The notes beneath the pieces are model-generated. The model had not been told where the DNA came from, did no database searches, and saw nothing but the letters and a program-made list of their open reading frames with translations. From a virus: a stretch of 64,000 bases of DNA. Made by a program: the position numbers and the translations under genes. Of this stretch, positions 29,439-47,929 are shown piece after piece (the stretch's first letter is position 1; every line of letters starts with the position of its first letter). The stretch lies in IMG/VR virus record IMGVR_UViG_3300044655_001360, one strand, 5' to 3'.

Positions 29439-30098
29439 TTAAGTTACGACATGTTCATAGATTCTACCGATAATGGCTTGGTTTCGCATCCTTAGCATCA
29501 AAAGAGTTTGCTCATCTTCTACTAGGATATATCTTGCATCACCAGACCATCTTGTATACATAATCCAATCTTGGATTGCTTCAGAGAATGTAATACGAGG
29601 TACTTGTGTATTCATCCACTTGATATATTCCTGCTTTTCAGCTGGATCAAGTATCTTATGTGGTTTCAAGAAAACCTTGAACCTATACTTACCATATGGT
29701 AATTTCTTAACAGAAATAACATTGGGTGTATCCAATATAGGATTTGTTAAGTCAGGTTCCCATCTTTCTAAGATTGGAAACTTAGCACTAATCGCATTAT
29801 ACATATTCACGTCATTTGTAAAGATAGAAATATCAAATTCCGTTCTAGCAGTCCAATCCGTTTTTGGATACATATCTACAAAATCAATCAATTCAATGAT
29901 TGCATCTTTATGGAGGTTCAACAAACGTTGTTGATGTTTGGAAAAACTCCAACAATAAGAACCGTTTTCGCAGAATTCTTTCATACGATTGCGGAACTTA
30001 TTGAAGTTTAACAACGCAGCACTGTATTGACTAACATCTATTGTGACTTTGTAAAGCCACTTGTCATAATACTTCTTAGTTGTCGTCTGCGTGATCAT
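29439..30098 (-). CDS. Hypothetical protein
   Basis: 219-aa ORF overlapping the clpA end. Confidence 0.6.
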   Translation of the reverse strand: MITQTTTKKYYDKWLYKVTIDVSQYSAALLNFNKFRNRMKEFCENGSYCWSFSKHQQRLLNLHKDAIIELIDFVDMYPKTDWTARTEFDISIFTNDVNMYNAISAKFPILERWEPDLTNPILDTPNVISVKKLPYGKYRFKVFLKPHKILDPAEKQEYIKWMNTQVPRITFSEAIQDWIMYTRWSGDARYILVEDEQTLLMLRMRNQAIIGRIYEHVVT

Positions 30099-32400
30099 CA
30101 GCTAATACCAATTGCCCATCTTCAACGATCAGTTTTTGATCTGATTCCACTACTGGTTTAACATACTCAGAAACTGTGAAAACGGGTTCGTCATTTTCGA
30201 TAGTAACTTTAACATGACCACCGTTAACCAAATCACCGAATAAAACACGACGACTTAATGGACTTTTCAGTTTAGTATCGATTACTCTTGAAAGAGGTCT
30301 AGCACCCATTTTCTTATCGTATCCAAGTTTAGCTAACCATTCAGCTGTAGTTTCATCGATTTCAATTAAGATATCTTTGTCTTTTAACTGGGCGTTTAAT
30401 TCACCAATGAATTTATCCACGATTTTAAGAACTGTACTATGTTCTAATGGAGCAAACTTGATGATAGCATCTAAACGATTGCGGAATTCAGGTGCAAAGT
30501 ATTCATTAATTGCTTTATCATCTTCACCAGTTCTAGCTAAATCACCAAACCCAATAGTATTACGTTCACTGTCACGAGCACCCAAGTTACTCGTCATAAT
30601 AAGAATACAGTTACGACCATCTGCTTGTTTGCCGTTAGAACCAGTTACAAAGCCATTATCCATGAATTGTAACATGATATTTGTTACATCAGGATGTGCT
30701 TTTTCGATTTCATCGAGTAGAAGAACACAGTGTGGATTTTCTTGCAGTTTAGTAATTAACTGACCTGCGTTGTCTTCAAATCCAACATAACCAGGAGGTG
30801 AACCAATCAATCTTGCCACTGAGTGTTTCTCTTGATATTCACTCATGTCAAAACGAACTAATGGCATGTGCATGTACTTAGCAAGTTGCATAGAAAAATT
30901 TGTTTTACCAACGCCGCTGGGTCCTGGGGCAAGAAAACATCCAATTGGTTTGTTAGGAGCTTTCATACCAGCTTGTGATAAGAAGATTTTATCAACCATT
31001 TTCTCAATAGCTTCGTCTTGTCCAAAGATAACCGATTTCAAATGAGGTTCTAATTCTTGCAAATCCGAACTTTCACGTTGATTCATTGATTCAAGTGGCA
31101 TACCTAGCATTTTAGACAATTCAAATGAAATCTGTTCGATGTCAACTATTTCAGTTACACCTTCAGTTGTCGGATCATCGTTCAATTTGAATCGAGCAGA
31201 AGCACAATCCAAGATATCAATTGCTTTATCTGGAAGTTGCTTGTCATTGATATACTTAACGGACAATTTAACTGCTTGTTCGATAGCTGCTGTAGTAATT
31301 TTCACATTATGATGTGCTTCATAATACTTACGAATACCTTTTAAGATTTTAACTGCCATTTCTGGTGATGGCTCATCCGCAGTAACTCGTTGGAAACGAC
31401 GCATTAATGCACGGTCATTTTCAAAGTGTTTGCGATAATCTTCCCATGTAGTAGAAGCAACAATTTTGATAGTACCTTTAGTTAATAAAGGTTTCAACAT
31501 ATTAGATAAATCATTAGCACTATTACTTGATGCACCAGCACCTTGCATCATATGAGCTTCATCAATGAATAATATAATTTTACCTTTTTTCACTAATGCT
31601 GCCAACACGCCTTTGATGCGTTCTTCAAAATCACCACGATACTTGGTACCAGCTAGTAACGAACTGATATCCAATGAATAAACTTCGTGGTCTTGAATGA
31701 ACTTAGGTACATCTTTCTCGTGAATTTTACGGGCTAGGCCAGCTATAATGGAAGTTTTTCCAACTCCTGGTGAACCGATTAAAAGTGCATTACACTTATG
31801 TCTACGAGCAAGAATCAATTGGATTTCTTCTAACTCGGTTTCACGACCGATAACTGGATCTATTTTGTTATCACGAGCAAGAGCACTCAAGTTAGTGCAA
31901 TACGCATCCAATAACTTATCTGGGTTTTTCGCACTACCAACTGCTTGATCACCCAAGTCACCATCTTCACGATTGGCATTGAAGTGTTTAGCAAACTTTT
32001 CTTTAGAAACACCACCACGATTAAAGAAGTAGTAAGCAAAACTGTTCTTTTCACTTAAGATACTAATGATAACATCAGTAACTTCAGTTGTATTACGACC
32101 ACTGAATACAACTTGAGTAAAGCAACGATGTAATACACGGTCAACCGAATTGGTTTTACGTGGTACGTGATTAGGATCATCGATTACGATTTCAGCCAAA
32201 TTGGTTTTCAAGTAGTGATCTAAGTTCATTTTAATAAACTTAGCATCTGCGCCAAAACCTTCGATTAAGTTATATGAATCTTGATCACTCATAATTGCAT
32301 ACGCAATATGTTCAAGAGTAATATACTCATGACTGTGTTCTTTTGCAATCTCAGTTGCTGCCTCAAAGATTGATTGTAAGTTTTTACTCGGTTCAATCAT
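30076..32400 (-). CDS. clpA: ATP-dependent Clp protease ATP-binding subunit ClpA
   Basis: Clp N-domain, two AAA+ modules (GSPGVGKT, GPSGVGKT, FIDEAH, LLLDEIEKAH), IGF ClpP-docking loop, no long M-domain. Confidence 0.93.
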   Translation of the reverse strand: MIEPSKNLQSIFEAATEIAKEHSHEYITLEHIAYAIMSDQDSYNLIEGFGADAKFIKMNLDHYLKTNLAEIVIDDPNHVPRKTNSVDRVLHRCFTQVVFSGRNTTEVTDVIISILSEKNSFAYYFFNRGGVSKEKFAKHFNANREDGDLGDQAVGSAKNPDKLLDAYCTNLSALARDNKIDPVIGRETELEEIQLILARRHKCNALLIGSPGVGKTSIIAGLARKIHEKDVPKFIQDHEVYSLDISSLLAGTKYRGDFEERIKGVLAALVKKGKIILFIDEAHMMQGAGASSNSANDLSNMLKPLLTKGTIKIVASTTWEDYRKHFENDRALMRRFQRVTADEPSPEMAVKILKGIRKYYEAHHNVKITTAAIEQAVKLSVKYINDKQLPDKAIDILDCASARFKLNDDPTTEGVTEIVDIEQISFELSKMLGMPLESMNQRESSDLQELEPHLKSVIFGQDEAIEKMVDKIFLSQAGMKAPNKPIGCFLAPGPSGVGKTNFSMQLAKYMHMPLVRFDMSEYQEKHSVARLIGSPPGYVGFEDNAGQLITKLQENPHCVLLLDEIEKAHPDVTNIMLQFMDNGFVTGSNGKQADGRNCILIMTSNLGARDSERNTIGFGDLARTGEDDKAINEYFAPEFRNRLDAIIKFAPLEHSTVLKIVDKFIGELNAQLKDKDILIEIDETTAEWLAKLGYDKKMGARPLSRVIDTKLKSPLSRRVLFGDLVNGGHVKVTIENDEPVFTVSEYVKPVVESDQKLIVEDGQLVLADDHADDN

Positions 32401-33165: not shown

Positions 33166-33963
33166 TTAAGTAGCAACTGCTTGTATATGCAGTATTTGAT
33201 CTGGTGTTAAGTCTTTGGGTATCTTGATTTTAACTTTAATCAAAAGATTACCACGACGTTTAGTTTGCATATTGGGTAACCCTTCACCATTACAACTTAA
33301 AACAGTTTCGGGTTGGATACCAGCTGGGATTGTCAGGTTTAGCGTTCTGTCATCTAAGGTATGAATTTCAAGTTTAGTACCTAAAAGAGCATCCCAAACT
33401 GATATGGTTTTTTCAACTACTAGCGCATCACCTTCACGTCTAAACATTCGATGAGGTCTAATGTTAATATTAACAATCAAATCACCAGGAGGAATACCAG
33501 CAATCGAATCATCACCCAGACCTTGATAACGAATCTGCTGACCATGTAACACACCAGCAGGAACTTCAAGTTTAATCGTTTTCTTCTGACCAGATGGGTA
33601 AGCCAAGTCAGCATCAAATGATTTACCAGTTAGCACTTCTTCAAGTGAAACTTCTACATGGATAGAAAGACTGGTATTACGTTGTACGTGATGAAACCCA
33701 TGAGGACCACCGCCATGGAAAAATTCAAATGGATTAAATCCACCATGGAATTGCGGTTCAGGATTATTTGGATCTTGTCCATTATCAACCCGTTGTTTTT
33801 TAACTGGGTCACTTAAGACTTCATAAGCCGTTGCAATGTCTTTAAATTGTTCTTCAGAACCACCTCGGTCTGGGTGATGTTTCATTGCCAGTGAGCGATA
33901 GGCTTTCTTAATTTCATCTGCCGATGCGCCACGTGTTAAACCTAAAATCTTGTAGTAATCCAT
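33166..33963 (-). CDS. dnaJ: DnaJ/CbpA-type co-chaperone (J domain plus C-terminal domain, no Zn finger)
   Basis: DYYKILG...IKKAYR.LA..HHPD, G/F-rich linker, and DnaJ_C motifs (GDL, ALLG, G.GLP). Confidence 0.9.
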   Translation of the reverse strand: MDYYKILGLTRGASADEIKKAYRSLAMKHHPDRGGSEEQFKDIATAYEVLSDPVKKQRVDNGQDPNNPEPQFHGGFNPFEFFHGGGPHGFHHVQRNTSLSIHVEVSLEEVLTGKSFDADLAYPSGQKKTIKLEVPAGVLHGQQIRYQGLGDDSIAGIPPGDLIVNINIRPHRMFRREGDALVVEKTISVWDALLGTKLEIHTLDDRTLNLTIPAGIQPETVLSCNGEGLPNMQTKRRGNLLIKVKIKIPKDLTPDQILHIQAVAT

Positions 33964-36274: not shown

Positions 36275-36574
36275 TCAATTATCTTTTATATCTCTCACGG
36301 CGCGTACCCGAATATTATCACTTGATTTACCATGAGCGTATCGACTACCATCTCTAAATGATAAAGCATCAGCAAGTATATTAGTAATCTCAACAGATGT
36401 CCAGTAGTATGAACTTGCGAAATCATTTCCTGATTTGTATATTTCGTTTAATTCTTCATTGGTTGGTAGCCTCCATCCGGATTTACCGCCTATATCAAGG
36501 GAGAAACAATACAAACGGGCATCATCCCAGTTGGATCGGATCTCTGTTGATTTTGGTGCTATTTCAAATTTCAT
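36275..36574 (-). CDS. DUF1566/Lcl-like protein, paralogue 2
   Basis: Family motifs present; promoter TTGACT-N16-TATACT at 36608..36635. Confidence 0.75.
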   Translation of the reverse strand: MKFEIAPKSTEIRSNWDDARLYCFSLDIGGKSGWRLPTNEELNEIYKSGNDFASSYYWTSVEITNILADALSFRDGSRYAHGKSSDNIRVRAVRDIKDN

Positions 36575-36726
36575 GTTATTAACTCCGGTTCTGTTTAAGA
36601 TGCTGGTAGTATAACAACGAAACTAATAAAGTCAATACCTAAAACAAAGAAACCTCAAATAGAAATATTTGAGGTTTTCTAAGAGGTGTGATTTCTCAAA
36701 AGTATTATTTGATTATATTACTGATA

Positions 36727-36747
36727 GCTCGCGCTATTCGCGCTCGC
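36727..36747 (-). repeat. Hairpin element, copy 6 (21-nt variant)
   Basis: Minus strand GCGAG CGC GAATA GCG CGAGC. Confidence 0.8.
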
Positions 36748-36809
36748 ACAAATAGAAATGAAATAGATAATTGAACCCACCAGATTTTGGACGTAACTGT
36801 CCATTTAAA

Positions 36810-37260
36810 AGAATAATACTAAAAGATAATTGAACTATGATTGTCTTATAGATGATGTCGATTACTAAAAGATGATTGAACTATTATAGACTTATAGATG
36901 ATGTTTATATTTGATCTATTATCTTTTAGTTATGATATTCTTATTGATGATCTTATTGATGATCTTATTGATGTGAGTTATTAATGAATTATCTTTTAGT
37001 TCAAAATGTATATGTTCGAATAGATCTAAAATGTATGTGTGCAAATGGAAACAGCTAAAATGTATGGGTTCGTATAGAGTTAAAATGTATGTGCGCGAAT
37101 GGAAACAGCTATAAGGCAATTATCTTTTAGGTTCAAAATGTATGTGCGCGTGGCTTAAGCAGGTAGGATATAAGGGAAGATAAAGTTGAATCTATTATCT
37201 TTTAGATGCTCCTACAATAATAGATTAATTATAGATTAATTATAGATTCTAATAGAAGCT
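36810..37260. repeat. AT-rich iterated-repeat region, candidate replication origin
   Basis: Two ~40-bp direct repeats starting CTAAAAGAT, three short TCTTATTGATG repeats, AAAATGTAT x5 within longer duplicated units, ATAGATTAATT x2, and six 12-mer boxes. Confidence 0.6.
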
Positions 37261-37269
37261 CCTAATACT

Positions 37270-37900
37270 GCGGTATGTGGAGCTGAACATCTTAACCCGA
37301 AAAACTCGGGTTAATTCAAAGCATTCTGGAGGATACATTCTCAAGAAGTTCTGCGTACAAGTATCGCATCACAGCAGCAGTAGAGCATTACAGAGGCGGT
37401 CAGCCGGTACCTCGAGCTCAGTCTTATTAATCTGACGGTGGCTTGCTGGACAACTGCTACCTCATCCAACAAACGCGGGTTTTCTCAACCCATCTTTAGC
37501 CTTTGTTATATCTTTTTGCTGTAACTCAAATGGGTTGTATGAAGGCATATCCCATAACTCATCTGGTGGGGTAGTGAGTTACATCTCCGTTGCTAAATTC
37601 GGAACTTCCATCCCCTATGTGACAAGTAGACTAGGGTTTAAGGGCACGTAATGGTCGCCTGTGCGCGGCTTTCTTAGCAATTCTCTCGTCTTTCTATGTT
37701 CTATCTAGTAATTCGACGAGCAATGGTGGCGGGTGCCTAAAAGATAATTGAAGTAGTATTGAGATGGTCTCTGAAGTTGTAAAAGCGAATAGACTAGGTG
37801 TCGGTAGGGATTTGAGTTGGTCTCTAAAAGATCATTGAGTAATAGACTGGGTGTCGGTAAGCATTTGAGATGGTCTCGGTAAACTGCTTTTGAGTAGAAT
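37270..37900 (-). ncRNA. Candidate large structured non-coding RNA
   Basis: ORF-free, GC-elevated core with many helices whose G.U pairs favour the minus strand. Consensus promoter directly upstream. Ends are uncertain. Confidence 0.6.
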
Positions 37901-37907
37901 ATGATTA

Positions 37908-38019
37908 ATTATAACTTAGATTATGGGGACTGTCAACCTTTTTTCAAGGCTTCTCGTTAACTTCTTTTGGGTAATTTCATAATATGGTTAATTGTACCTT
38001 GTATAGAAATGGATGTCAA
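37908..38019 (-). promoter_or_regulatory. Two sigma70-like promoters pointing into the non-coding interval
   Basis: TTGACA-N17-TATAAT (37908..37936) and TTGACA-N17-TACAAT (37991..38019). Confidence 0.8.
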
Positions 38020-38025
38020 GTGTTT

Positions 38026-38316
38026 TTAATCATCTTTTAGATCTCGAACTGGCATAGTAACTGCTTCGCTTTCGTTTTTGTCCCATTCTATGAAGTGCAT
38101 TCCGTGTGGGCGCACTTGCATTGCATCCAATCCAAGGTCCTCGGAAGTCCAGTACCAATGATTGACAGCTGATGTGACTTGATTTGCGTGAAAATAATCT
38201 ATATCAGGTAAATGCCAACCGGTTTTACCATCGATATTAAGACAAAAACAATAAAACTTGGCTTCATACCAATTCAAATCGGATTTCCAATATTCTTCAG
38301 GTGCTATCTCAATCAT
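38026..38316 (-). CDS. DUF1566/Lcl-like protein, paralogue 3
   Basis: Family motifs; ends PVRDLKDD. Confidence 0.7.
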   Translation of the reverse strand: MIEIAPEEYWKSDLNWYEAKFYCFCLNIDGKTGWHLPDIDYFHANQVTSAVNHWYWTSEDLGLDAMQVRPHGMHFIEWDKNESEAVTMPVRDLKDD

Positions 38317-41829: not shown

Positions 41830-43134
41830 ATGAGTATTTATGCACCAGTCAAAAACCCAATTTCATTGGGTACACAATCAAACACTGTACAACCACAACC
41901 AACAACTTTACCCGAAGATAATCAAATCCCAGGGTATGTATATCGACTTACCTGTATACCTACTGGACAGTTTTATATAGGATCTCGTGTTGGGAATATC
42001 ACCGAAAAGAAAATGCCGAAAGAAGACTTTTGGATTAATTATCATACCAGTAGTGAATATGTCACTGAGTTAAGAATACTGTATGGGAAAGCTAGTTTCG
42101 AGTATGAAATCATTTACGAGGATTGTGATAGAGATAAAGTATTTTGGTATGAACAGGAACAAATCCAAAAACATTATAATGACCCATTGATTTTGAATAA
42201 ACAGGTTAATGGATATAAAGATAAACATAAAGGTAAATCTATACCAATATCCACATCAGGAAAACATAGAAAATGGGAAGTTACAGCACCGTGTGGTGTT
42301 GTGTGGGTAGTGAGTAACCTTGAACGATATTGCAAAAATAACGACTTAGATCCAGAAACGATGCGTGGTTTAGCGAGAGGAAAAGGTAAGCAATACAAAG
42401 GCTTTAAGTGCAGACTACAACCCAAATTACCAGTTCCAGCTTGGTATGTTACTATTGACATGGGTGACATTATAAAACCAATCGAACCTATTATGATATT
42501 AGGTAAAGTTCCGGTCATCGATATCAATATCAATCTAGTAGTACCGGAATTGCATGTGATTAAGTTTAAGCATAAGGAAAAGACTGAATCGTTGAGATCA
42601 CAGTATAAGAAATTAACTGCTGCTAAACCAGCAAAGAAACCAAAACCAGTGATACCATACAGCCCATCTGTTGCTAAAGGCTTGGCTAAAAAGAAAGCCA
42701 ATGGAACTCTTAGCTCGGCAGCTATAAAAGGTCAGGCAACACAGAGAAAGAATGGAACACATCAAAATGGTAACAAGGCTACCGTGTTAGCAACTAGAAA
42801 AGTGTGGGAGATTACTGATCCAGCTGGTAATATTACTATTACCAATGATTTGACTGGTTTTTGTAAAGAAAACGGCTTATCAGTTGCTTGTATGCGAGAT
42901 GTTGCATTTAATAGGCAGTTACAACATCGTGGTGGGTGGAAATGTAAAGAATGCGTTGGTGCTAAACCAGCAATTCATTGGGAGATTACGGACCCATTTG
43001 GTAATATAATTACAACTGATAATATAAAACAATTCTGCGAGGATAATAGTTTGAGTGAACCAGGTATGCGAAAAGTTGCACTTGGTTCCGCAAAATCACA
43101 TCGAGGCGGCTGGAAGTGTAAACGATTAGACTAA
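41830..43134 (+). CDS. Free-standing GIY-YIG-type homing endonuclease with three NUMOD-like repeat modules
   Basis: GYVY...FYIGSR and Y.TSS; three 'W.[IV]T.P.G......NL..[FY]C..N.L....MR..A.....GWKC'-like repeats. TATAAATA at 41755. Confidence 0.7.
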   Translation: MSIYAPVKNPISLGTQSNTVQPQPTTLPEDNQIPGYVYRLTCIPTGQFYIGSRVGNITEKKMPKEDFWINYHTSSEYVTELRILYGKASFEYEIIYEDCDRDKVFWYEQEQIQKHYNDPLILNKQVNGYKDKHKGKSIPISTSGKHRKWEVTAPCGVVWVVSNLERYCKNNDLDPETMRGLARGKGKQYKGFKCRLQPKLPVPAWYVTIDMGDIIKPIEPIMILGKVPVIDININLVVPELHVIKFKHKEKTESLRSQYKKLTAAKPAKKPKPVIPYSPSVAKGLAKKKANGTLSSAAIKGQATQRKNGTHQNGNKATVLATRKVWEITDPAGNITITNDLTGFCKENGLSVACMRDVAFNRQLQHRGGWKCKECVGAKPAIHWEITDPFGNIITTDNIKQFCEDNSLSEPGMRKVALGSAKSHRGGWKCKRLD

Positions 43135-47837: not shown

Positions 47838-47929
47838 CTAAAAGATAATTGAAAACGACTAAAAGATAATTGCTTTTAGTATTGAAAACGGCTAAAAGAT
47901 AACTGAACCATAAGGCAATTATCTTTTAG
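47838..47929. repeat. Cluster of four 12-mer boxes (three direct, one inverted)
   Basis: CTAAAAGATAA[T/C] at 47838, 47859 and 47892; ATTATCTTTTAG at 47918. Confidence 0.85.

What the first reader, a model, noticed from the sequence alone, without database searches (positions are those of the whole stretch)
37270..37900. Candidate large, ornate non-coding RNA behind a perfect consensus promoter
Seen: TTGACA-N17-TATAAT (37908-37936, minus strand) fires into an ORF-free region with a GC-elevated core (about 37270-37740). Helices: 37292-300/37306-314 (9 bp); 37441-450/37465-474 (10 bp with two G.U pairs only on the minus strand); 37477-491 GGGUU/AACCC; 37520-528/37575-583 (9 bp, enclosing a further stem 37530-555); 37613-617/37632-636; 37644-647/37661-664; 37393-396/37410-413. 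Long-range pairings: 37345-351/37602-608 (7 bp) and 37590-596/37674-680 (7 bp, from a hairpin loop, so a possible pseudoknot). Established: phages carry large structured RNAs of unknown function (GOLLD, ROOL). I cannot assign this one to a family.
Basis: partly seen in the sequence, partly recalled or inferred. Interest (0 to 1): 0.82.

Follow-up and report, generated by a model that had tools for sequence, protein, structure and literature searches.

The report
Full-length Polynucleobacter-1 phage RNA gene
The gene-free stretch is a real, knotted non-coding RNA gene of about 390-450 bases with its own strong promoters in a giant phage. Its first third is a catalogued RNA family (Rfam Polynucleobacter-1) whose function nobody knows, so it is a new member of a known orphan family rather than a new class.

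Summary
The observation largely holds. The perfect sigma-70 promoter, the ORF-free and G+C-richer core, and all seven local helices are present on the minus strand.

Rfam assigns 37669-37519 (-) to Polynucleobacter-1 RNA (RF01718) at 68.3 bits against a cut-off of 37.

The RNA is larger than the 141-nt Rfam model. A 3' tail (37518-~37348) and a terminal hairpin (37314-37292) are conserved in all 63 IMG/VR contigs found. The tail helices covary strongly: 98% paired, 20 of 24 pairs with double changes. A pseudoknot is 100% paired in an alignment not fitted to structure. This tail and its pseudoknot were already sketched in Weinberg 2010's supplement.

The other is invariant and cannot be tested. 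MFE is no better than shuffles (z = -0.9).

This copy differs from the usual ones:
- It is a stand-alone unit with two conserved tandem promoters.
- It has a G-poor tandem-repeat leader and a conserved G-poor iteron-like field.
- The whole 1.24-kb module is bounded by a dispersed 15-mer.
- It is not next to the minimal GIY-YIG gene that precedes the RNA in most T4-like phages.
- It has no clear "twin box".

This scan has met the family many times on other DNA (236 notes), including a second copy in this genome. Function remains unknown.

The parts
38026..38040 (-). Upstream border of the conserved module. A copy of the dispersed 15-mer box (CTAAAAGATGATTAA) that also forms the last codons of the DUF1566-like ORF 38026-38316.
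   Evidence: Box scan found 33 copies against 0.44 expected. Homology to relatives begins here.
37991..38019 (-). Distal sigma-70-type promoter, TTGACA-N17-TACAAT.
   Evidence: 11/12. Kept in L002, L003, L005 and L008.
37908..37936 (-). Proximal perfect sigma-70-type promoter, TTGACA-N17-TATAAT. The start site is inferred near 37901.
   Evidence: 12/12. The -35 hexamer and the 17-nt spacing are kept in all relatives, including L001, while the spacer sequence differs.
37737..37900 (-). G-poor leader made of tandem repeats: a 53-nt unit x2.2, containing two reverse-complement copies of the 15-mer box (37824-38 and 37737-51).
   Evidence: RNA-sense G is 9.8%. Copy number and leader length vary among relatives (151-296 nt; 14-nt unit x9.4 in L001).
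37678..37736 (-). Clade-specific 5' extension: GCACCCGCC..., hairpin P0 (37720-15/37690-85), and UUGCUAA (37680-74).
   Evidence: P0 shows CUCGUC/GACGAG against CUCACC/GGUGAG in L004, L006 and L007. The hairpin is absent from L001 and from the T4-like clades.
37519..37669 (-). Rfam RF01718 Polynucleobacter-1 core, with helices P1, P2, P3, P4 and P6 and the invariant motifs GGGAUGGAA and CACUACCC.
   Evidence: cmscan 68.3 bits against a gathering score of 37, model positions 1-141. Compensatory changes in P4 and P2 appear among relatives.
37348..37518 (-). 3' tail that Rfam does not model. It holds the conserved AAGGCUAAAGAU, T1 (37491-87/37481-77), T2 (37474-64/37451-41, UAGC loop), T5 (37419-16/37386-83) enclosing T4 (37413-10/37396-93), pseudoknot 37436-32 with T4-loop 37403-399, and T6 (37368-65/37355-52).
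   Evidence: nhmmer and the profile search detect it in all 63 viral contigs. Model R1 gave alignment A4, with 98.3% paired, 20 of 24 pairs showing double changes, and 0 of 500 shuffles reaching this. The pseudoknot plus T4 are 100% paired on the unfitted alignment A2. The same tail and pseudoknot appear in the Weinberg 2010 Stockholm file. T6 rests on the window clade only: its alignment to other clades was inconsistent, so it was left out of the pair counts.
37285..37347 (-). Variable hairpin T7 (about 37347-37324) followed by conserved hairpin T8 (37314-06/37300-292). No U-tract follows T8, so it is not a canonical terminator.
   Evidence: T7 has three different self-complementary versions in the clade. 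One search shows no terminator call here. The T4-like clades have an equivalent hairpin followed by GUGUGAC.
36800..37284 (-). Conserved G-poor, A+T-rich repeat field. It holds ATAATTAATCT x2, ACATACATTTT x5 (37003-37145), CATCAATAAGAT x3, four forward and two reverse 15-mer boxes, and a 31-nt imperfect inverted repeat (36861-36933). It forms the downstream part and border of the module.
   Evidence: It is as conserved among relatives as the RNA, and homology ends at 36775-36882. G is 9.5% and C 18.8% in RNA sense. Whether it is transcribed is not known.
36650..36677 (-). First canonical intrinsic terminator downstream (12-bp stem plus U-run). It lies outside the conserved module and is followed by the next gene's own promoter (36635-36608).

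Best explanation
Window 37736-~37285 (minus strand) is a stand-alone gene for the full-length form of the Polynucleobacter-1 RNA, about 390-450 nt. It consists of the 141-nt Rfam core, a 3' tail with nested helices and a loop-to-strand pseudoknot, and a terminal hairpin.

The RNA sits in a giant (about 350 kb) T4-related phage, inside a 1.24-kb conserved module (~38040-36800). The module is made of two tandem host-type (sigma-70) promoters, a G-poor tandem-repeat leader, the RNA, and a G-poor iteron-like field. Copies of a 15-mer that is dispersed through this hyperplastic region bound the module.

Shown:
- family membership
- the fold, by covariation
- the strand
- promoter conservation
- the module borders
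- the absence of an adjacent nuclease gene

Inferred:
- The RNA is made early by the host polymerase as an independent transcript.
- It acts in trans through its compact tertiary fold, as a protein-binding or self-assembling RNA that serves host takeover or counter-defence.
- It is not a cis-regulator, a primer or a guide.

I put the identity and anatomy at about 0.9. The trans-acting scaffold or decoy reading is only about 0.3. The biochemical function is not known for any member of the family.
For: Family and fold:
- RF01718 matches at 68.3 bits, full model.
- The same RNA scores 75-94 bits in the 13 related loci scanned with Rfam: 8 close relatives plus T4-like and bacterial loci.
- The profile search finds the full ~350-nt RNA in all 63 IMG/VR contigs.
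- Tail helices are 98.3% paired with 149 double-change cells; slid controls give 35-48%.
- The pseudoknot is 100% paired with 34 double-change cells, on an alignment not fitted to structure.
- G.U pairs and the Rfam hit fix the minus strand.

Transcription unit:
- Promoter hexamers and spacing are kept in every relative while spacers and leader length change.
- The T4-like copies start a median 33 nt after a GIY-YIG stop codon, so they have no promoter of their own. This copy does.
- The paralogous copy's orthologue L001 has the same promoter-repeat-RNA layout next to RNase HI.

Module and independence from a nuclease:
- Only ~36800-38040 aligns with relatives (77-82% identity). The flanks are unrelated.
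- No GIY-YIG orthologue is found in the window or in 246 kb of relatives' contigs.
- Cultured phages carry that nuclease family without the RNA.
- The next gene downstream has its own terminator-promoter pair.
Against: - There is no transcript evidence.
- MFE is not better than shuffles.
- No protein partner, ligand or oligomeric state is known, so the trans-acting decoy or scaffold function is a guess by exclusion.
- The conserved repeat field downstream, which is as conserved as the RNA, is not explained by this reading.
- In T4-like phages the RNA is tightly linked to a minimal GIY-YIG gene (69 of 76 loci). That protein is more conserved than the core genes (73% against 52% and 31%). This hints at a functional tie that the present copy may keep in trans from an unseen part of the genome.
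Confidence: 0.8

Rival explanations
1. RNA-primed (R-loop) replication origin. The strong promoter drives a structured RNA into an A+T-rich iteron field. There the transcript stays hybridised, is cut by RNase H, and primes DNA synthesis, as in ColE1 RNA II or T4 oriF/oriG.
For: The layout is promoter, then RNA, then a conserved A+T-rich repeat field with five ACATACATTTT copies. The second copy's orthologue lies directly after an RNase HI gene. T4-type phages use several transcript-primed origins (textbook knowledge).
Against: - The RNA is G-poor exactly where a hybrid should form: 9.5% G in the field and 9.8% in the leader. Stable R-loops favour G-rich RNA.
- There is no cumulative GC-skew turn at 37 kb beyond what gene orientation gives.
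- The same RNA family sits in T4-like phages between a nuclease gene and a convergent baseplate gene, and in bacterial islands, without such a field.
- Dozens of invariant unpaired bases and two pseudoknots exceed what priming needs.
- An earlier follow-up on the paralogous copy found no support either. That is an AI note, not independent evidence.
Confidence: 0.07
2. RNA partner (scaffold or guide) of a minimal GIY-YIG nuclease, as omega RNAs are for TnpB/IscB. In this phage the two genes would have been separated and work in trans.
For: - In T4-like phages a 142-aa GIY-YIG-only protein (PF19835, no DNA-binding domain) directly precedes the RNA in 38 of 63 RNA loci, and in 69 of 76 loci picked by the protein alone. 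The median gap is 33 nt.
- The protein is more conserved than gp46 or the baseplate hub in the same contig pairs.
- The T4-like RNAs carry two identical, fast-evolving 7-9-nt boxes.
Against: - No orthologue is found in the window or in five relatives' contigs.
- The window RNA shares only CGCAG between the two box positions.
- Ten RNA loci have a PDDEXK nuclease in that place instead.
- The nuclease family occurs in 250 cultured-phage records. None of the five inspected has the RNA next to it.
- No complement of the boxes occurs within the RNA itself, and extra copies in the held loci are few.
- A homing endonuclease parked beside a conserved target gene explains the linkage equally well.
Confidence: 0.06
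3. Cis-acting element: a long structured 5' leader or processed UTR that controls the downstream DUF1566-like gene (36275-36574) or the stability of a long early transcript.
For: The Rfam and Weinberg table lists the motif as possibly cis-regulatory. No canonical terminator follows the RNA until 36677-36650. Complementary 15-mers bracket the RNA (37751-37 with 37205-191 or 37130-116) and could form a processing stem.
Against: - About 700 nt, a strong terminator and a separate promoter (36635-36608) lie between the RNA and the next gene.
- In relatives the sequence downstream of the module is unrelated.
- In T4-like phages the RNA is followed by a convergent gene.
Confidence: 0.03
4. Not an RNA gene. 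The pairings would be by-products of DNA repeats, or of a decayed gene, in a repeat-rich intergenic region.
For: The region is full of direct and inverted repeats, and the MFE z-score is insignificant.
Against: Compensatory double changes occur in 20 of 24 tail pairs, and a pseudoknot is 100% maintained across 38 diverse sequences. G.U pairs work on one strand only. The Rfam structural model matches. The repeats lie outside the core.
Confidence: 0.02

Closest known systems
Polynucleobacter-1 RNA motif (Rfam RF01718; Weinberg et al. 2010, Genome Biol 11:R31, PMC2864571)
   Same: The full-length match is above the gathering score. The same invariant motifs are present (GGGAYGGAA, CACUAYCC). The same helices form. 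The same 3' 'tail' and pseudoknot appear as in the 2010 Stockholm file (GCCGU.., UAAGAC, GGUACCG..ACCGCC). The family is linked to phage-like DNA of fresh and estuarine waters.
   Different: - Rfam models only 141 nt. The RNA here is about 390-450 nt, with a clade-specific 5' hairpin.
- The small CC/GG hairpin of the model is not formed here.
- This copy is not downstream of the GOS11034 / minimal GIY-YIG gene. It has its own tandem sigma-70 promoters, a repeat leader and a conserved repeat field.
- The 2010 authors had found none in a sequenced purified phage.
GOLLD, ROOL and OLE large ornate RNAs (Rfam; cryo-EM in Kretsch et al. 2025, PMC12286853)
   Same: These are large, highly structured, orphan RNAs, often on phage or prophage DNA. 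Many conserved unpaired bases suggest tertiary or quaternary structure.
   Different: There is no sequence or structure match. This RNA is about half their size. Oligomerisation is untested here.
Omega/HEARO-type nuclease-associated RNAs (IscB, TnpB)
   Same: In T4-like relatives the RNA starts directly after a small nuclease ORF, lies on the same transcript, and carries short fast-evolving boxes.
   Different: The nuclease is a GIY-YIG domain with no known RNA dependence. Cultured phages have that nuclease without the RNA. In this window there is no adjacent nuclease and no clear variable box.
ColE1 RNA II and T4 oriF/oriG origin transcripts
   Same: A promoter-driven structured RNA runs into an A+T-rich repeated region. 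An RNase HI gene lies beside the paralogous copy.
   Different: The RNA is G-poor over the candidate hybrid region. There is no skew signal. The family occurs elsewhere without such a field.
PeSL promoter/stem-loop cassettes of T4-type hyperplastic regions (Arbiol et al. 2010, PMC2839356; Comeau et al. 2014, PMC4122927)
   Same: A short conserved motif coupled to early sigma-70 promoters marks the borders of exchangeable units. Only the unit, not its flanks, is shared between related phages.
   Different: The motif here is a 15-mer that also lies inside promoter spacers and in frame at ORF ends. The cargo is an RNA gene rather than an ORF. Recombination at the boxes is inferred, not shown.

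Membership tests
Rfam RF01718 Polynucleobacter-1 RNA | Covariance-model score at or above the curated gathering score over the whole model | tested here: met
   68.3 bits against 37, E = 2.3e-12, model positions 1-141 of 141, window 37669-37519 (-).
Rfam RF01718 Polynucleobacter-1 RNA | Invariant single-stranded motifs GGGAYGGAA and CACUAYCC at the junctions | tested here: met
   GGGAUGGAA lies at 37614-37606 and CACUACCC at 37576-37569. Both are invariant in 38 aligned homologues.
Rfam RF01718 Polynucleobacter-1 RNA | All model helices formed | tested here: inconclusive
   P1, P2, P3, P4 and P6 form. The short CC...GG hairpin after CACUAYCC is marked non-canonical in the window and its clade. 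P4 and P2 show compensatory changes among relatives.
Rfam RF01718 Polynucleobacter-1 RNA | 3' 'tail' with extra stems and a pseudoknot (the 'tail' and 'tailpknot' subfamilies of the 2010 alignment; not in the Rfam model) | tested here: met
   The 2010 Stockholm file shows the tail. Tail helices are 98.3% paired and the pseudoknot 100% paired, both with covariation.
Rfam RF01718 Polynucleobacter-1 RNA | Usual context: directly downstream of a GOS11034 / minimal GIY-YIG gene | tested here: not met
   The upstream gene is a 96-aa DUF1566/Lcl_C-like ORF. No orthologue of the 142-aa GIY-YIG protein is in the window. Context is not a membership criterion in Rfam.
GOLLD / ROOL | Match to the Rfam models | tested here: not met
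   No hit at gathering threshold on the window, and none at E <= 1 on 36500-38100.
Transcript-primed origin (ColE1 RNA II / T4 oriF type) | G-rich RNA over a C-rich template that gives a persistent hybrid, plus an initiation signal in strand composition | tested here: not met
   RNA-sense G is 9.5-9.8% in the field and leader. There is no skew inflection. Actual initiation cannot be tested with these tools.
Nuclease guide/scaffold RNA (omega-RNA-like) | Adjacent nuclease gene and a variable targeting segment | tested here: not met
   No adjacent nuclease. The twin box is reduced to CGCAG. Action in trans is not excluded.
PeSL-type shuffling cassette | Composite early promoter plus stem-loop motif at both borders of a unit that is exchanged between related phages | tested here: inconclusive
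   The 15-mer boxes coincide with both homology borders, and one abuts an early promoter.

The most novel reading that the evidence does not exclude
The 1.24-kb box-bounded unit would be a self-contained, shufflable 'RNA cassette' kept twice in a giant phage. It comprises tandem early promoters, a G-poor repeat leader, the full-length Polynucleobacter-1 RNA and a G-poor iteron field. Its abundant early RNA would work without the GIY-YIG gene. It could act as an RNA-only multimer or as a decoy that titrates a host factor or defence protein, with the unstructured G-poor repeat flanks serving as protein landing pads. That would make this copy the cleanest natural separation of the RNA from its usual nuclease neighbour, and a handle on the function of the whole orphan family.
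Probability: 0.15. Interest if true: 0.7.

Novelty: new member of a known kind. Interest (0 to 1): 0.4.

Why it matters
Polynucleobacter-1 has been an orphan Rfam entry since 2010. It was described as a 141-nt motif that might be cis-regulatory and had not been seen in any sequenced phage.

This locus and its relatives show three things. The real RNA is a doubly knotted molecule of about 400 nt. It is common in uncultured T4-like and giant freshwater phages. It can be an independent gene driven by host-type promoters, with no nuclease gene beside it.

That argues against a purely cis role. It weakens, without excluding, the idea that the RNA exists only as a partner of the GIY-YIG protein. It also gives a compact natural construct (promoters plus RNA) for expression, structure probing and cryo-EM.

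It is not a new class, and the scan has met the family many times.

Tried and rejected
- fold_alignment (RNAalifold) on the 38-sequence MAFFT alignment returned only the T4 hairpin, because the variable hairpins were misaligned. I replaced it with a covariance model of the tail.
- A brute-force search for covarying column pairs was too noisy to use.
- Model R1, built from the window clade, did not reach the third T4-like clade at E <= 0.01. Tail statistics therefore rest on 22 sequences, and the pseudoknot on 38.
- T6 could not be aligned consistently outside the window clade, so it was left out of the counts.
- blastn of the 1.4-kb region, and of a T4-like copy, against 50,697 phage records found no RNA homologue.
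- No whole genome is held for the window. The second copy could only be studied through its orthologue L001.
I dropped the idea.
- Group I intron or hammerhead resemblance (CAGAUGAG, GAGACU): there are no Rfam hits and no consistent pairing partners. I rejected it by inspection.
- A search for a partner of the twin boxes found no complement inside the RNA and no consistent extra copies in the loci.
- The weak cow-rumen-2 hit (20.7 bits against 66) is chance.

Full report
**1. The observation**

A second near-consensus promoter lies 83 nt upstream at 38019-37991. Between 36615 and 38025 there is no ORF above 66 aa. The core 37270-37740 has 46% G+C, against 38% for the window and 29% just downstream.

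Single-sequence thermodynamics does not support the fold: the MFE z-score is -0.93 on the minus strand and -0.63 on the plus strand. The case rests on comparative evidence.

**2. Identity**

cmscan against Rfam 15 gives one hit in the whole 64-kb window. It is RF01718, Polynucleobacter-1 RNA, at 37669-37519 (-), with 68.3 bits (gathering score 37) over model positions 1-141. Nothing else in 36500-38100 reaches significance.

The family comes from Weinberg et al. 2010 (PMC2864571). Their supplement says three things: the 3' half "is not always detected", most examples lie downstream of GOS11034 genes, and none was found in a sequenced purified phage. Their Stockholm file already carries 'tail' and 'tailpknot' subfamilies. 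It shows GOS sequences with the same GCCGU.., UAAGAC and GGUACCG..ACCGCC blocks that occur at window 37430-37385.

**3. Real extent and fold**

Pattern scans found the motif in 63 IMG/VR contigs and 42 genome or MAG contigs.

- A profile search aligns all 63 viral copies over about 350 nt, covering the Rfam core plus a 3' tail.
- The Burkholderiales chromosomal and MAG copies align only over the 5' half.

A covariance model of the tail, built from the window clade (A3, R1), aligned 22 sequences (A4). Helices T1, T2, T5 and T4 are 98.3% paired, and 20 of 24 pairs show changes on both sides. The covariation score is 0.83, against 0.22 in shuffles (0 of 500 reach it). Controls with the 3' partner slid by 1-3 columns give 35-48% paired.

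On the plain MAFFT alignment of 38 distinct RNAs (A2), the pseudoknot between 37436-32 and the T4 loop 37403-399 is 100% paired, as is T4. The pseudoknot pairs alternate UA/CG, AU/GC and UA/GC.

The window clade adds a covarying 5' hairpin, CUCGUC/GACGAG against CUCACC/GGUGAG. It also has a variable hairpin T7 and a conserved hairpin T8 (37314-37292). The other clades have an equivalent hairpin followed by GUGUGAC.

- 37345-51/37602-08 is not kept in L004 or L001 and competes with P3.
- 37590-96/37674-80 is invariant in the clade, so it is untestable.

**4. The carrier and the module**

The window encodes these products:
- a B-family DNA polymerase, 49% identical to those of Pseudomonas PA5oct-type jumbo phages
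- a Lon-like protease
- DnaJ
- PhoH
- an endolysin
- virion and tail-fibre proteins

Relatives' contigs are rated 7-20% complete at 23-72 kb, which implies a genome of about 350 kb.

Only window ~36800-38040 aligns with relatives L002-L008, at 77-82% identity. The flanks are unrelated apart from DUF1566 paralogue fragments. Both borders coincide with copies of a 15-mer, CTAAAAGATAATTGA. That 15-mer occurs 33 times in the window against 0.44 expected. It is found at ORF ends, inside the spacers of sigma-70 promoters, and in arrays.

The module therefore behaves like the promoter/stem-loop (PeSL) cassettes of T4-type hyperplastic regions (PMC2839356, PMC4122927), with an RNA gene as cargo. This is an analogy. 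Recombination at the boxes was not shown.

Within the module:
- Promoter hexamers and the 17-nt spacing are kept in every relative.
- Spacers, leader length (151-296 nt) and repeat number (53-54-nt unit x2.2 to x4.3) vary.
- The leader and the downstream field are strikingly G-poor in RNA sense (9.8% and 9.5% G), while the core is balanced.
- The field carries five local copies of ACATACATTTT and is as conserved as the RNA.

**5. A second copy**

Notes from this scan report a paralogous copy about 31 kb before the window, next to RNase HI. I could not read that DNA.

L001 is its evident orthologue. It has an ORF ending in the RNase HI signature ..GHSGVPGNERADELA, then TTGACA-N17-TACAAT, then a 14-nt unit repeated 9.4 times, then the RNA. 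Its P1 shows compensatory changes relative to the window copy.

**6. Context elsewhere and what it says about mechanism**

Upstream neighbours of the RNA in the viral loci:
- In 38 of 63, a 142-aa protein that is only a SegE-type GIY-YIG domain (PF19835) lies directly upstream on the same strand.
- In 10, a PDDEXK_15 nuclease takes that place.

Further neighbours are gp46/gp47-like genes, a convergent T4 baseplate-hub gene and a gp20-type portal, so these carriers are T4-like myoviruses.

I also picked loci by the protein alone. At least 585 IMG/VR contigs encode it. Among the 80 best, 69 of the 76 testable loci have the RNA starting a median 33 nt after the stop codon. The seven exceptions have a long protein ORF (about 380 aa in five) overlapping the stop instead. 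The protein is more conserved (median 73% identity) than gp46 (52%) or the hub (31%) in the same contig pairs.

Against an obligate RNA-nuclease partnership:
- The family occurs in 250 cultured-phage records at 40-52% identity. These include Melnitz, phiM12, ACP17, C48C1 and V45v66. None of the five inspected has the RNA beside it.
- The window and 246 kb of its relatives hold no orthologue.
- The paired 7-9-nt 'twin boxes' of the T4-like RNAs are reduced to CGCAG here.

In Burkholderiales chromosomes the 5' half lies divergent from a DUF6641 gene. In Polynucleobacter rarus it lies 2.6 kb from a partial tmRNA match, which suggests an island at ssrA.

The RNA is thus a widely travelling component of mobile DNA, and its neighbours change.

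**7. Mechanism**

- A cis-regulatory role is unlikely here. A terminator and a separate promoter lie before the next gene, and downstream DNA is non-homologous in relatives.
- An R-loop origin is attractive by layout. It is disfavoured by the G-poor transcript, the absence of a skew signal, and the absence of such a field in other carriers.
- A nuclease-guide role is not supported for this copy.

By exclusion, I favour an independently transcribed, early, trans-acting folded RNA. It could be a protein-binding scaffold or decoy, or a self-assembling RNA in the manner shown for GOLLD, ROOL and OLE (PMC12286853). I put that reading at about 0.3. Identity and anatomy I put at about 0.9.

**8. Verdict**

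This is a real feature, correctly spotted. It belongs to a catalogued though poorly described family, so it is a new member of a known kind.

Its value lies in three points:
- It shows the full-length RNA as a promoter-driven, nuclease-free cassette.
- It documents the tail and its pseudoknot with covariation.
- It shows that the whole 1.24-kb module, including the unexplained repeat field, is the conserved unit.

The scan has reported this family many times on other DNA (236 notes in at least 147 genomes). Those notes were used as leads only.

Noticed in passing
window-wide; e.g. 32570-84, 33092-106, 36275-89, 39926-40, 44583-97, 45363-77, 47838-47929: The 15-mer CTAAAAGATAATTGA occurs 33 times (0.44 expected). 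It appears in frame as ..LKDN* at the ends of small DUF1566-like ORFs. Its reverse complement fills the 16-17-nt spacer of sigma-70 promoters (TTGACA-[TCNATTATCTTTTAG]-TATAAT). It also forms a four-copy array at 47838-47929. This looks like an operator and/or a PeSL-like recombination motif.
   Followed up: partly
window 37003-37145 (-): Five copies of ACATACATTTT lie 25-53 nt apart, inside two 54-nt tandem units. The motif is found nowhere else in the window on that strand. The stretch is 94-100% identical in several relatives.
   Followed up: partly
window 36861-36933: An imperfect 31-nt inverted repeat is built from a forward and a reverse 15-mer box. It lies at the downstream border of the conserved module.
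   Followed up: no
window 36720-36750 and 36650-36677 (-): A G+C-rich hairpin (GCGAGCGCGAATAGCGCGAGC) resembles hairpins seen after other small genes of the region. It is followed by a strong intrinsic terminator and the next gene's promoter (36635-36608).
   Followed up: no
L001:1-1168 (IMGVR_UViG_3300047301_000031): This is the orthologue of the genome's second RNA copy. Its layout is an RNase HI gene, a consensus-like promoter, a 14-nt unit (TTACCCTAAAGCAG) repeated 9.4 times with 100% identity, and then the RNA.
   Followed up: partly
L009-L063, L111-L190 (T4-like IMG/VR contigs): A 142-aa GIY-YIG-only protein is more conserved (73%) than gp46 (52%) or the baseplate hub (31%) between the same phages. 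It is followed within about 33 nt by the RNA in 69 of 76 loci. The RNAs there carry two identical 7-9-nt boxes that differ between lineages (GGATAAT, AGATGAA, AGTCAAG and others).
   Followed up: partly
L085:5495-5565 (Polynucleobacter rarus chromosome): A partial tmRNA match (18 bits, E = 0.002) lies 2.6 kb from the chromosomal Polynucleobacter-1 copy. This suggests the RNA rides on an island integrated at ssrA. A DUF6641 gene lies divergently upstream in 28 bacterial loci.
   Followed up: no
window 41830-43134 (+): A 434-aa ORF combines a distant GIY-YIG domain (27-32% identical to the RNA-linked family) with an HNH motif. It is a likely free-standing homing endonuclease, on the opposite strand from its neighbours.
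   Followed up: no
window 30076-32400 and 33166-33963 (-): The phage encodes a Lon-like ATP-dependent protease (phrog_4871, E = 5e-242) and a full DnaJ (J domain plus C-terminal domain).
   Followed up: no
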